64,000 bases of DNA from Octopus vulgaris (GCA_951406725.2 OX597821.1:112592001-112656000), one strand, 5' to 3'; positions 17,793 through 24,440 are shown, counted from the stretch's first letter. The notes: a model not told the origin generated them from the letters alone. Made by a program: numbers and translations.

Positions 17793-17985
17793 GTTAATCC
17801 AAACATGAAAACACAAAGAGAAAACATAACAACGCGAGGACGTGGAACAAGTATGTTATTGGACGCTCAAGAAAGAAGGAAAGAAGGAGGGTTTAACGTT
17901 TCGAGCGGAGCTCTTCGTCAGAAACATAGGAAAAGGAAAGATCCAAAGAAGGGAAGACGGCAGAAAAAAATCGCCAACGGTACAC
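17793..17985 (-). mobile_element. Short non-coding PLE pLTR-like module ending at (TA)n
   Basis: Contains a hammerhead followed by a ~100-nt U-rich tail, then (TA)n; same layout as 24275-24440. Confidence 0.7.
17891..17925 (-). ncRNA. Minimal hammerhead ribozyme
   Basis: Minus strand GTTT-CTGACGA-a-GAGC(tcc)GCTC-GAAA-CG-TT-AAAC: intact core, palindromic ACGU stem III, GUU cleavage triplet, stem I GUUU/AAAC. Confidence 0.8.
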
Positions 17986-19465
17986 TGCATATACATGTGT
18001 ATCTGCATATGTGTGTAAATCGGTACATTATATACACACAAATATTCAAACAGCTTACATTAATCTCCGGATATATATATATATATATATATATATATAT
18101 ATATATATATATATATATATATATATCTTTCAATGTATATCTATCTATTTATATGTGTGTGTGTGTGATGGTGTATCTATGTAGATATGTACATATGTAT
18201 ATGTGTGTATCATCGTGCATCTCTCTGCCTCTCTATTTATGTGTGAGTGAGTGCGCGTGTGTATGTGTGTAAATATCTGTGCGTAAATGACTGTGTGCCT
18301 AATCGTAGTACCAGTTTCAAACACACACACACACACATACACACACATAAATATATATGTATGCTTAAACGATTTAAACCAGCGATCCTTAGCTCGATTC
18401 ACAAACTTGTGTATATGAATCGTTTTTACAGATATTTCCCTTCATTTTCTAATCTATATTGTCGACCAATTTGGAATTCAAAAATAAATTAAAGAACGAA
18501 TCTAAAATTAGAGTGGTTCCGTTGTCTTCATTGGCTTTCCAATACCATTCTCTGAAGAAAGTCTGAAAATGGTGTCTTAGAAAAGATATCACAATAGATT
18601 TTTTTATCTCACTATCTACGTTCTAAAAAGAGTCAAGATCAAAAATATATTATGTATGTTATACACCCATACATAGGAGCGTATATACATATATGCATGA
18701 ATAGACACATATGTATACACACACACACACACATACACACATATATATGTTTATACATACACACAAACATATGTATGTGTATCGCGTGTGCGTTTGTGCA
18801 TTCTCACTTCAAGTGACGTTCTCTAATATTTAGTTACAAACTAGCATAGCCACTGGCAAACAAGTATGTATATATGTGTGTATATATATCTATATATATA
18901 TATGTGCATATATATATATATATGTATATATATATATATATATATATATATATATATATATATATATATATATATATATATATATATGTATATATATATA
19001 TATATATATGTATATATATATATATATATATATATATACATGTATATACCTATATATGCATATATATATATACATATATAGGTATATGTATATACATGTA
19101 TATATATGTGTGTGTGTATATATCTACATAGATATGTATGTATGTACGTATATGTATATCTATATATACATACATACTTATATCCTTATACGTATATCCT
19201 TATACGTATATAAATGTGTGTGTATGTACACAAATTACGTGTGTGTGTGTGTGTAGATATTTATGTATATATGATTACATACATACATACATGCAAATAT
19301 ATTTATACACACATACACACGCCCACATACACACATACACGCACACAGATCTATCAACGGCAGTTAGCAGTCTACTGATCGTCCATAGATGTCTTTGTTC
19401 TGAGGAAGTTGATACGAAAGAATCCGAAGAACAAGTATTCAGTAACACAACGGCGCTAATAATAA

Positions 19466-19742
19466 TACCGCCGCCGCCGCCGCCACCACCTCCATTACTA
19501 CTACTACTACTACTACTACTACTACTACTACTACTACTTCTGCTGTTGCTGCTGTTGCTGCTGCTGCTGCTACTACTACTACTACTACTACTACTACTAC
19601 TACTATTACTGCTGCTGTTGCTGCTGCTGCTGCTACTACTACTACTACTACTACTACTGCTGCTGCTGCTGCTACTACTACTACTACTACTACTACTACT
19701 ACTACTACTACTACTACTGCTAATAATAATAATAATAATAAT
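19466..19742. repeat. (CCG)/(CTA)/(CTG)/(TAA)n compound microsatellite
   Basis: Direct reading. Confidence 0.92.
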
Positions 19743-19920
19743 CTTTTCCACTACAGGCACAAGGCCTGAAATCTGGGGGAAAGGGGGCAAATCGATTGAA
19801 TCGACCCCAATACTGAACTGGTACTTATTCCCTCAGCCCCCAAAAGTACTTATGTCATATACCCCAAAAGAGGCCGGAAGAATTTGTACTCAGGACGTAA
19901 AGAGAGACGAAATGCCGCAA
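19742..19920 (-). mobile_element. SINE A (3' portion)
   Basis: ggcacaaggcctgaaat..tcgacccca..ctggtacttat is the reverse complement of the family A tail. Confidence 0.7.
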
Positions 19921-21604
19921 ACCGTAACTTAGCGGTTTGGCAAAATAGCGCGATAAATATATCTAGTAGACTTTAAAATTTTCATCTACTGTTTGATTAA
20001 ACAGTTGAAATTTGTGCTCCAGAAAGGGCGTATTGCTATGATTAATATACGTAAAAGGATAAAGAATACACGCATGCGCGCACGCATAGCAACACACACA
20101 ATGAGTTGCTCCTTTGTTTTACTGGGAAATGTAATAATCGATAAAAAGTGCTTGTTTCTGTTCCCTTTATCACATACATACATACATAAATACATACATA
20201 TATACACACTTACACACACATATACAGATATAGATATATGATTAATGAGACGGAAGATGGGTGATGCGGGAATGTTTATTAATTACTATAGTTCTTTCTA
20301 CCCATCTAGCAACGATCGTTCGCGGGTGGGATACTTAGCAACTGGTTTAGGTGTATCTGTCGGTATAGATGTGTCTCTTCAGGTGATTACAAGATATATC
20401 TCTTAAAATAAAGACTGTTCTGCAAAATAAAGACTTTTTCTCGGTTTGTGTATAGAACATCAGCAAATTAATACATGTTTTGCTGTATTATGAATTCGTT
20501 TCCTTCTGCGTTTGTTATTTATTATTGATCTATAAAAATAATAATAGCAAATAATGATAACAAAATTAAAACAGCGTACCAAAGGGCTTCGAAACTACAA
20601 AAATTTTACTGTGAAAATAATAAAGGTAGAAAATTTTATATGAAAATAGGTTGTCTATTCACTTTATTACGCATGCTGAATACCTGTATGAAAATTTCTT
20701 AAAATTTTCTACCCTCATTATTTTCACAGTATATATATATATATATATATATATATATATATATACAATCACACACAATGTTCGTGCATGCGCGTATGTG
20801 CGTGTATGTGTTTGTGTGTGTGTGTGCGCGCGCGTATCTATACAAACATATCTCTTGAATCATACGCTTCTCTTTCATTAGCCCTAGGTTACTCTGGTGG
20901 CTGAAAATATTCGGGCTGTGTCTTTTATATGATGCGTGGTCGTCAGGGATATATGTCTTGAGTTTCAGATGTGATAAATAGGACAGGTAAAAGGTTAATT
21001 AAAGTAGACGTAGGTAATCTAAGTAAAGAAAGAAAGAGAGCGAGAGAGAGAGAGAGAGAGAGAGAGAGAGAGAGAGAGAGAGAGAGAGAGAGAGAAAGGA
21101 GAGAAATTTCGGAACAACCAGCACGTTTCAAAACGGGATTTATTAGGTGCCTTCACCATAAACTATCCATTATGAATACCATGGCCCTAATCAAAATGGG
21201 TGGACGAACGAGAACTGAAAGCGAACGTGAATTTAAATGACTGCAAGGTTCTACCTAACTTCATGACAATCAGCGAATGCTGGAAATTAATATTTTACCG
21301 AGGGATATAATTGATAAATTGTATAGACCGAGGGACCAAAATGCCCGTTCTTATTTAATTACAACTTCCGTTCATCCTAAGTCCTTCCAAATTCGTCGTG
21401 CTTGAATTTTCATTGAAGAGTCAAGCAGTGGAGGTCAATTCAATCGACCACATTCCTCATTTCGCGACGCGTACCCGTCTATCGAGTCCAGAAAACAATA
21501 TATTATTCCACTCCAAAGGTCTGTCCTCTTCTTGTATTTCGCTGTCTTTCAGAAGACTTCTCTCCTTAATACTCTATACTCTACTCTACATGTTTATACT
21601 CTCC

Positions 21605-22407: not shown

Positions 22408-22545
22408 CTCACTCACTCACTCACTCACTCACTCACTCACTCACTCACTCACTCACTCACTCACTCACTCACTCACTCACTCACTCACTCACTCACTCAC
22501 TCACTCACTCACTCACTCATTCACTCACTCACTCACTCACTCACT
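22408..22545. repeat. (TCAC)n microsatellite
   Basis: Direct reading. Confidence 0.95.
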
Positions 22546-23412
22546 TACTCTCTCTCTTTCCTTGTCTCTTTAATCCTTTTCTTTCACTCCCTCACTTCGT
22601 CCCTGTCTCCCCCTCCTTCATCTGTTGCTTCCCTCAATCTCCCAATGTCGTCTGCACTATCGTCTGCATTCCCACTCATTCACAGTCTCTGCCAATCCTC
22701 CTTCCCAATCGGAGTCCATTCTCGCACCCACTCTCTCTCACCCCACCTCTCTTTCTCTCTACCTCTATCTCTGCCTCACCCCCTCTCTCTCTGTCTCATC
22801 TCTTTTTCCCTAACTCTCTCTCATCCCCTTTTTACTCCCTCTCTCTCTCTCTCTCTCATTTATTAGCACCCACCATCAATATCTCCACCCTCATTACCAT
22901 CCTCCGTCTCGTTCTCATCCTCCCGTATAAACCACTGCTTAGTCATCTCCTTGCGTTGTATTTGCCATGTTTCTTACTACCCCAGACCCCGCCGCACACA
23001 CACACACACACACACACACACACACACACACACACACGCACGCACACTAACACGCGTGCGCGTACCGAATTATACACCTACGCTTTTACACACACGCGCG
23101 CACACTCAAACACGAACTCGACAAATGCGTTCATAAAGCTCACATCGTATAGACTCAACATTAACTCTATTACAAACATGTAAAACACTAGCAGCAGTAA
23201 CAGCAGCAGCATCTGGCCTTGTCCTGGTTTATAAATACTTAAAATAAATACAATTTTAGAAGTAAAATACAAAAATATACAGAAATTGCTTTGAAAACAG
23301 GCCAACGATGTTTATACGGTTGCCCTTGGAATGGCGATTAAATTGTATTTGTTGCATTAAAGCATCCAAGCATCATATTTTTTACAGCCAACCGTGGTCG
23401 GGCATCTTGGAG

Positions 23413-24270
23413 CATAGATACATACACACATACATACATACATACATACATACATACATACATACATACATACATACATACATACATACATACATACATA
23501 TGCACACATACATATATACATACATACATACATACATACATACATACATACATACATACATACATACATACATACATACACACACACATAGATACATACA
23601 CACATACATACATACATACATACATACATACATACATATGCACACATACATATATACATACATACATACATACATACATACATACATATATACATACACA
23701 CACACATACATACATACATACATACATACATACACACACACACATACATACATACATACATACATACATACATACATACATACATACATACATACATACA
23801 TACATACATACGTACATACATACATACATGAATGCATGCATGCACACATACATACATACATACATACATACATACATACATACATACATACATACATACA
23901 TACATACATACATACATACATACATACATACATACATACATACATACATACATACATACATACATACATACATACATACATACATACATACATACATACG
24001 CACACACAAACATACAAACAAAAATACCCTGTTGTTGATGTTGAAATTCCAATGATGGAGCCTTGAATCTAGGTTAGAAAACGGTTCTCTCTCTATTGGC
24101 AAATCTTGAAATAGACTGAATAATGCATACATACATACATACATACATACATACATACATACATACATACATACATACATACATACATACATACATACAT
24201 ACATACATACATACATACATACATACATACATACATACATACATGCATACATACATACATACATATATAC
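23413..24270. repeat. (TACA)n tract containing a LINE 3' UTR
   Basis: About 850 bp of catacata repeats, interrupted at 24000-24125. Confidence 0.95.
24000..24125 (+). mobile_element. 3' UTR of the (TACA)n-associated RLE LINE
   Basis: caaaaatacc.tgttgttgatgttgaaattccaatga..ccttg.atctaggttagaaa.cggttct..cttgaaata.actgaataatg matches 63178-63290. Confidence 0.85.
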
Positions 24271-24274
24271 ATGC

Positions 24275-24440
24275 ATTCTCTCCTTGTTTCTCTCCTTGTT
24301 TTTTTCTGTGTCCCTTTCTGTAGAAGAGCGTAGGCTCGAAACGTAAGAGACTTTTTCTATTCCTGAGCGTTATACTAATACATCTGTTTGTTTTGTACAC
24401 CACCTGTCTTCGTCTTTTGTTTTTTTCGTAAACTCTCCCT
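24275..24440 (+). mobile_element. Short non-coding PLE pLTR-like module ending at (TA)n
   Basis: Hammerhead-like core, then a ~95-nt tail, then (TA)n; shares stem II GAGC/GCTC, GAAACGT and a downstream tgagcgt with 17793-17985. Confidence 0.68.
24314..24349 (+). ncRNA. Variant minimal hammerhead ribozyme (CUGUAGA core)
   Basis: CTTT-CTGTAGA-a-GAGC(gtag)GCTC-GAAA-CG-TA-AGAG. A6 is replaced by U, stem I has one G-U pair, and the triplet is GUA. Confidence 0.6.

What the first reader, a model, noticed from the sequence alone, without database searches (positions are those of the whole stretch)
17793..24440. Shared architecture: hammerhead, ~100-nt tail, then (TA)n in three separate modules
Seen: the predicted cut site lies ~110 nt (4299 to 4410), ~102 nt (17894 to 17793, minus strand) and ~95 nt (24345 to 24440) from a (TA)n junction. 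The two short modules have no adjacent ORF, and they share GAGC/GCTC stem II, GAAACGU and a downstream UGAGCGU although their other sequence is diverged. Inference: either solo pLTR ends of other PLE families or a non-autonomous, ribozyme-processed, (TA)n-targeting small-RNA retroelement (retrozyme-like) mobilised by PLE RT. This is the best candidate here for an under-described system.
Basis: partly seen in the sequence, partly recalled or inferred. Interest (0 to 1): 0.72.

Follow-up and report, generated by a model that had tools for sequence, protein, structure and literature searches.

The report
Penelope retroelement tips, not a retrozyme
The three ribozyme-plus-tail modules are end pieces of three abundant protein-coding Penelope-type jumping-gene families, not a separate small-RNA element, but many short copies start at one fixed spot per family, likely where the element's RNA begins.

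Summary
The coordinates hold. All three modules are pLTR ends of autonomous Penelope-like elements (PLEs). Module A belongs to a Hydra-clade element whose broken ORF lies beside it. B and C lead upstream, in longer genomic copies, to RT + GIY-YIG ORFs of Neptune/Nematis type; relatives with long open frames exist. The retrozyme reading fails: copies span the cut site, none of 70 position-ordered copies is tandem, and the tail is not one length (A ends at +37 or +109). Most copies are still solo (5 of 70 have an ORF upstream), and their 5' ends are not just ragged. They pile up at a wall 82, 85 and 17 nt above the core, at an initiator-like motif, while 0 of 27 full-length 5' pLTRs stop there. 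The stubs are likely run-off cDNAs from an internal RT start site to the RNA's 5' end; no RNA data could test this. At least 83% of 34,626 B/C-type motifs have a non-canonical core (A6U or U4C). The scan noted both the wall and A6U before on other DNA.

The parts
1386..1710 (-). 3' pLTR of Hydra-clade PLE (family A); hammerhead core C3 at 1452, cut after 1423, short end 37 nt after the cut, then (TA)n
   Evidence: (99% to 4025-4341)
2470..3840 (-). 5'-truncated ORF of family A (456 aa): RT YRDD, CxCX5C linker, GIY-YIG-type region without CCHH
   Evidence: full-length 727-codon frames with RWK and DKT in L380, L381; no Pfam hit
3841..4014 (+). partial duplicate of the inverted pLTR at the head-to-head junction
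   Evidence: 98% over 161 nt
4015..4409 (+). inverted pLTR plus tail of family A (module A); core C3 4270, cut after 4299, long end +110
17793..17986 (-). module B: solo pLTR end of a Neptune/Nematis-type PLE; 65 nt above core C3 (17921), cut after 17895, 102-nt tail, then (TA)n
   Evidence: 88% to the 3' ends of ORF-bearing L151 and L152
24277..24439 (+). module C: solo pLTR end of a related PLE; 41 nt above core C3 (24318), core CUGUAGA, cut after 24345, 94-nt tail, then (TA)n
   Evidence: 92-95% to the 3' ends of ORF-bearing L153, L154, L095
24440..24505 (.). (TA)n target run after module C; equivalent runs at 4410, 17718-17792 and 1214-1385

Best explanation
The modules are terminal-repeat ends of three autonomous Penelope-like retrotransposon families, likely inserted when the element's GIY-YIG nuclease cuts (TA)n and its reverse transcriptase copies uncut RNA from a fixed internal site about 95-110 nt past the hammerhead, and the short copies likely end where that RNA begins. 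Shown: family identity, fixed 3' ends at (TA)n, read-through of the same sequence into the 5' UTR in full-length units, a short element-encoded TA stretch at the B and C ends, two alternative 3' ends in A, a 5' wall at an initiator-like motif in the A, B and young C families. Inferred: target-primed reverse transcription with internal initiation (by analogy with PMC11167929); the wall as transcription start; the hammerhead as a slow or protein-dependent structure whose cut is not used for these insertions. The window's own B and C stop 20 and about 40 nt short of the wall, so they are truncated members of the short class. Family identity about 0.93; wall = RNA start about 0.6.
For: Long copies join B and C to ORFs with YGRYIDD, a CX4CxxC linker and GIY-YIG. 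Full pLTR-ORF-pLTR units of about 4.5 kb (C relative, 79% to module C) and 5.9-6.2 kb (B lineage, 78-85%) exist, with RVT_1 E=1.5e-07 and 5.8e-04 and sub-threshold GIY-YIG hits. A: 3.36-kb units with RWK, DKT, CxCX5C; ends at +37 in 16 of 30 and +109/110 in 13 of 30, one of each in 7 of 7 head-to-head pairs, the known one-sided tail. 5' wall: young C family 12 of 70 end at 79-86 nt, none at 87-150, 44 longer (Poisson p=6e-11); B 29 of 30 end at 87 or less, 17 at 75-87; A 11 of 30 at 13-17. The nearest YYANWY above the core lies at 82, 85 and 17 in those three references, with 7-9 such motifs per 300 nt. Short and long copies mix: 3 short and 11 long young-C copies share one haplotype; B tree needs 17 label changes, mean distances short-short 0.071, short-long 0.076.
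Against: 0 of 12 and 0 of 15 (20 fetched, 5 dropped for lacking the core or the read-through motif) full-length 5' pLTRs stop at the wall. A simple 'copy to the RNA start' model predicts some would (my arithmetic: 0.79^15 = 0.03 at the 12/56 stop rate). No extra G from a copied cap before the wall in 0 of 20 wall copies (read). In L154, the reference for module C's own subfamily, the 74-81 pile-up (11 of 30) has no YYANWY match. B and C are related, so they are not independent support for the initiator match. Short/long labels are more clustered on the B tree than in shuffles (17 vs 24.1; 0 of 500), though duplicates and biased picking of long copies contribute. All position-ordered samples come from the start of one contig.
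Confidence: 0.72

Rival explanations
1. Solo modules and 3' pLTRs are themselves transcribed from the initiator and re-copied in trans by the PLE protein, so the short class partly propagates like a SINE, without ribozyme processing.
For: It explains why full-length units never stop at the wall: RNAs with two pLTRs could always jump, while single-pLTR RNAs could not. The older B subfamily is 29 of 30 short against 26 of 70 in the young family. Label clustering on the B tree. An internal PLE promoter is reported in PMC2377424.
Against: No short-only diagnostic column; short and long copies intermingle and share haplotypes. Most stubs lose part of the initiator. Long old copies may be under-counted.
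Confidence: 0.15
2. Ordinary 5' truncation with a sequence hot spot: RT stalls at a hairpin, or cDNA ends anneal by microhomology at that place.
For: B has a 7-bp hairpin around the wall. A's wall sits at a palindromic CTAG where the two inverted copies join. Young C stubs often join (AT)n through an AT.
Against: No stable hairpin at the young C wall (centroid open, z=+0.9). A sequence-intrinsic stop should also act in 5' pLTRs of full-length copies, yet 0 of 27 stop there. Nothing ends just beyond the wall (87-150).
Confidence: 0.1
3. An independent ribozyme-processed retrozyme with circular RNA.
For: Tens of thousands of ORF-less copies of about 190-215 nt, each with a hammerhead-shaped motif. 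A preprint derives animal retrozymes from PLE pLTRs (10.64898/2026.07.22.740005).
Against: 0 of 70 tandem. Copies include both sides of the cut. Minimal motifs with a palindromic ACGU in place of helix III. A6U or U4C cores dominate. Parents with ORFs carry the same module.
Confidence: 0.03

Closest known systems
5'-truncated and solo pLTR copies of EN+ PLEs with minimal type I hammerheads (PMC4209133, parts 1-2 of 4 read; PMC3846280, passages)
   Same: Minimal motif with extra base between 9 and 10.1, G10.1-C11.1, palindromic 15.2-16.2; mostly single motifs 'probably related to truncated PLEs'; inverted pairs; one-sided tail.
   Different: Sharp 5' wall at an initiator-like motif, and dominant A6U and U4C cores, are not described in what I read.
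Hydra-clade PLEs (PMC8557442, section 11 and passages)
   Same: Family A: RWK, DKT, CxCX5C, no CCHH, CxxC and CxH around E and N, hammerhead, (TA)n insertion.
   Different: Unit 3.36 kb (paper: generally <3 kb); tail between the two ends is 72 nt, not 30-40.
Neptune/Nematis-type PLEs (PMC8557442 passages)
   Same: B and C: DKG, CX2-5CxxC linker, C-terminal GIY-YIG with CCHH, microsatellite targeting, partial tandems.
   Different: Long low-complexity 3' UTRs (about 0.8-1.7 kb); one dominant 3' end. Neptune versus Nematis not resolved here.
PAc Poseidon element in vitro (PMC11167929, parts 1-2 of 4 read)
   Same: Internal RT initiation downstream of the hammerhead at two sites that define the tail; uncut RNA is the template.
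   Different: PAc starts at a site not homologous to the target; B and C ends carry a short element-encoded TA stretch matching the (TA)n target.
Metazoan non-LTR retrozymes (PMC7229834 passages; 10.64898/2026.07.22.740005 parts 1-3 of 5)
   Same: Short, non-coding, type I hammerhead, PLE-related.
   Different: Retrozymes are tandem with canonical motifs and give circles; these are monomers that span the cut site.

Membership tests
EN+ Penelope-like element | single ORF with RT and GIY-YIG | tested here: met
   (in long copies; GIY-YIG below Pfam cut-off; no Pfam hit for A)
EN+ Penelope-like element | pLTRs, partial tandems, inverted copies, one-sided tail | tested here: met
EN+ Penelope-like element | hammerhead motif in pLTR | tested here: met
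   motif in both pLTRs of full-length units; cores often non-canonical
Hydra clade (A) | RWK, DKT, CxCX5C linker, no CCHH | tested here: met
   against PMC8557442 section 11
Hydra clade (A) | RT phylogeny with reference Hydra elements | not tested
   no reference sequences fetched
Neptune/Nematis type (B, C) | CX2-5CxxC linker, DKG, CCHH | tested here: met
   translations
Neptune clade proper (B, C) | RT phylogeny separating Neptune from Nematis | not tested
   'Neptune' is a recalled resemblance only
Non-LTR retrozyme | head-to-tail tandem repeats each with a hammerhead | tested here: not met
   0 of 70 within 600 nt upstream
Non-LTR retrozyme | canonical type I hammerhead | tested here: not met
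   minimal motifs; at most 5,745 of 34,626 B/C-type matches can be CUGANGA
Non-LTR retrozyme | no autonomous coding parent attached | tested here: not met
Non-LTR retrozyme | circular or cut-site-bounded RNA; self-cleavage | not testable with these tools
   only assembled contigs were offered

The most novel reading that the evidence does not exclude
PLE terminal repeats act as self-contained Pol II mini-elements: an RNA starting at an internal initiator, carrying a catalytically weakened hammerhead (A6U, U4C) as a protein-loading fold and a TA-primed RT start site, is copied in trans into (TA)n, and solo copies seed further copies. This would be a SINE-like class born repeatedly from PLE ends, and the strong-stop-like stubs would map the first step of PLE reverse transcription in vivo.
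Probability: 0.2. Interest if true: 0.66.

Novelty: new member of a known kind. Interest (0 to 1): 0.4.

Why it matters
As elements these are ordinary PLEs. What is useful is the record they leave: how PLEs prime, why they form pLTRs and what their hammerhead does are open questions (PMC8557442, PMC11167929). Thousands of stubs with a fixed RT start and a fixed 5' wall, the absence of that wall in full-length units, and young families spreading with A6U or U4C cores give direct tests of RNA start, template jump and whether cleavage is needed. Standard CUGANGA descriptors would miss most of these motifs.

Tried and rejected
Rfam scan: swamped by microsatellite miRNA hits, no hammerhead in the 150 rows shown of 424. 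Pfam: nothing for ORF A or the L154 frame. Idea that the downstream UGAGCG sequesters stem II as an off-switch: not favoured, pairing probability 0.00-0.20 against 0.75-0.94 for stem II in four sequences; the motif is exact in 29 of 70 copies and stays unexplained. Folding z-scores of the three motifs are unremarkable (-1.35, -1.00, -0.36). RNA: no holder on record as RNA was listed; four contig sets laid on L171 cannot show starts; no evidence either way. Search of fetched loci for other stem II families to test covariation found essentially none. The 85 nt above module B (17987-18070) gave only weak low-complexity matches and is treated as flank. Paper searches: Penelope-like + hammerhead + microsatellite; hammerhead + Penelope + A6U (A6U count 0 in the 25 listed); core variants; pLTR promoter; octopus; strong-stop, run-off, template switch. 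None of the listings showed the wall or a natural A6U family; supplements were not read and subscription papers are missing. Natural A6C and U4C variants are in print (PMC7151607, PMC3088659, passages).

Full report
Observation. The genome is 2.8 Gb in 227 contigs and rich in microsatellites; a cephalopod is my untested guess. Two things were missed. The window has a fourth copy of motif A on the minus strand (core 1452), only 37 nt from (TA)n. And C's core is CUGUAGA.

Module A. It is the inverted pLTR of a 5'-truncated element whose ORF lies at 2470-3840 minus. Full-length relatives are 3.36-kb units with a 727-codon frame holding RWK, DKT and YRDD, with the CxCX5C linker start in L380. These are the Hydra-clade marks in PMC8557442 section 11, which also reports (TA)n insertion. 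An exact 40-nt pattern has 3,491 matches. Among the first 30, the 3' end is +37 in 16, +109/110 in 13 and +70 in one; 7 of 7 head-to-head pairs have one of each. That is the published one-sided tail, explained in vitro by two internal RT start sites (PMC11167929).

Modules B and C. Both are high-copy. Walking upstream reached ORFs with YGRYIDD, CX4CxxC and GIY-YIG joined to the same 3' ends: L151 and L152 are 88% identical to B; L153, L154 and L095 are 92-95% identical to C. Protein searches found many near-identical copies with long open frames. Fetched units are pLTR-ORF-pLTR, some in tandem. These full-length units are relatives of the window's subfamilies (79% to C; 78-85% to B), not their exact parents. 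In 5' pLTRs the module reads on into the 5' UTR through a short TA stretch; in 3' pLTRs that stretch merges with (TA)n. So the fixed 3' end is an internal site of the element, and it likely pairs with the nicked target (inferred). In A this overlap is only 1-3 nt.

Copy structure. In the first 70 pattern hits on contig C1 (1.5 kb upstream for 30, 3 kb for 40), 5 have an ORF match upstream, 58 align for 100 nt or less above the core (lower bounds for diverged subfamilies), 49 have (TA)4 at 78-115 nt, and none has a same-strand motif within 600 nt upstream. B's 3' UTR is about 1.7 kb, so the shorter windows cannot reach its ORF. Every copy was chosen by a pattern that ends at the cut and extends above it, so copies beginning at the cut site could not be seen in these samples.

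The 5' wall. Young C family (2,752 exact matches): of 70, 14 end at 11-75 nt above the core, 12 at 79-86, none at 87-150, 44 beyond (p=6e-11). B subfamily (3,602 matches): 29 of 30 end at 87 or less, 17 at 75-87; two look like a duplicate. A: 11 of 30 at 13-17. Similarity-picked sets agree: B 13 of 30 at 84-86, C 11 of 30 at 74-81. The nearest YYANWY above the core falls at 82, 85 and 17; the initiator consensus is recalled, and L154 does not fit. An internal promoter with initiator is reported for Penelope (PMC2377424, PMC3846280; passages). Against a simple model: 0 of 27 full-length 5' pLTRs stop at the wall (two of the first 12 are inside tandem arrays), and no cap-derived G is visible (0 of 20). 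The first result also argues against a plain stall site. It fits best if stubs come from RNAs copied once from the nearby start site, while long copies come from templates that allow a jump or are more than unit length. Whether those short templates are 5' ends of full mRNAs or transcripts of solo and 3' pLTRs is open; short and long copies share haplotypes, which favours by-products but does not exclude self-propagation.

Cores. CTGNNGA-type matches number 24,712, of which 18,967 have U6; a further 9,914 lack U4, nearly all CCGACGA in the listing. Young full-length units carry these cores in both pLTRs, so they are not decay. In B's subfamily 76 of the first 100 listed are CCG; the window's canonical CTG may be a CpG change or a minor lineage. 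Position-6 changes lower activity in Mg2+ for A6C (PMC7151607, PMC3088659; passages); A6U was not assayed in what I read. With uncut RNA as template (PMC11167929), the motif is likely slow, protein-assisted or structural (inferred).

Verdict. New members of known PLE clades; the retrozyme reading is not supported. Solo minimal hammerheads from truncated PLEs are in print (PMC4209133). The wall and the variant cores were not in the papers I saw, but the scan noted both before, mostly in shark-like genomes and once (U6) in this genome; I had stated the run-off reading before the first look-up. Interest 0.4.

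Noticed in passing
window 16252-17175 (+): Decayed RT fragments of another Hydra-like PLE (31-49% identity to ORF A), partly duplicated, just beside module B on the other strand.
   Followed up: partly
L014, L046, L047, L054, L059, L096, L121, L183, L184: Modules of families A, B and C often sit next to each other in the same (TA)n run, suggesting repeated insertion into earlier targets.
   Followed up: no
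L181 core region and other L180-L189 units: The young B-lineage family has both U4C and a mismatch in stem I, yet has many near-identical copies with long open frames.
   Followed up: partly
L246, L253, L261, L282, L283, L285, L286, L295: A young C sublineage carries a roughly 30-nt duplication in the tail and still ends at the same terminal sequence, so the 3' end follows sequence, not distance from the hammerhead.
   Followed up: no
window 37884-38334 and 13402-13675: Tandem repeats of 153-bp and 115-bp period.
   Followed up: no
L103:1-1500: C-family copy in which the N-terminal half of the RT is joined directly to the 3' UTR, an internally deleted derivative.
   Followed up: no
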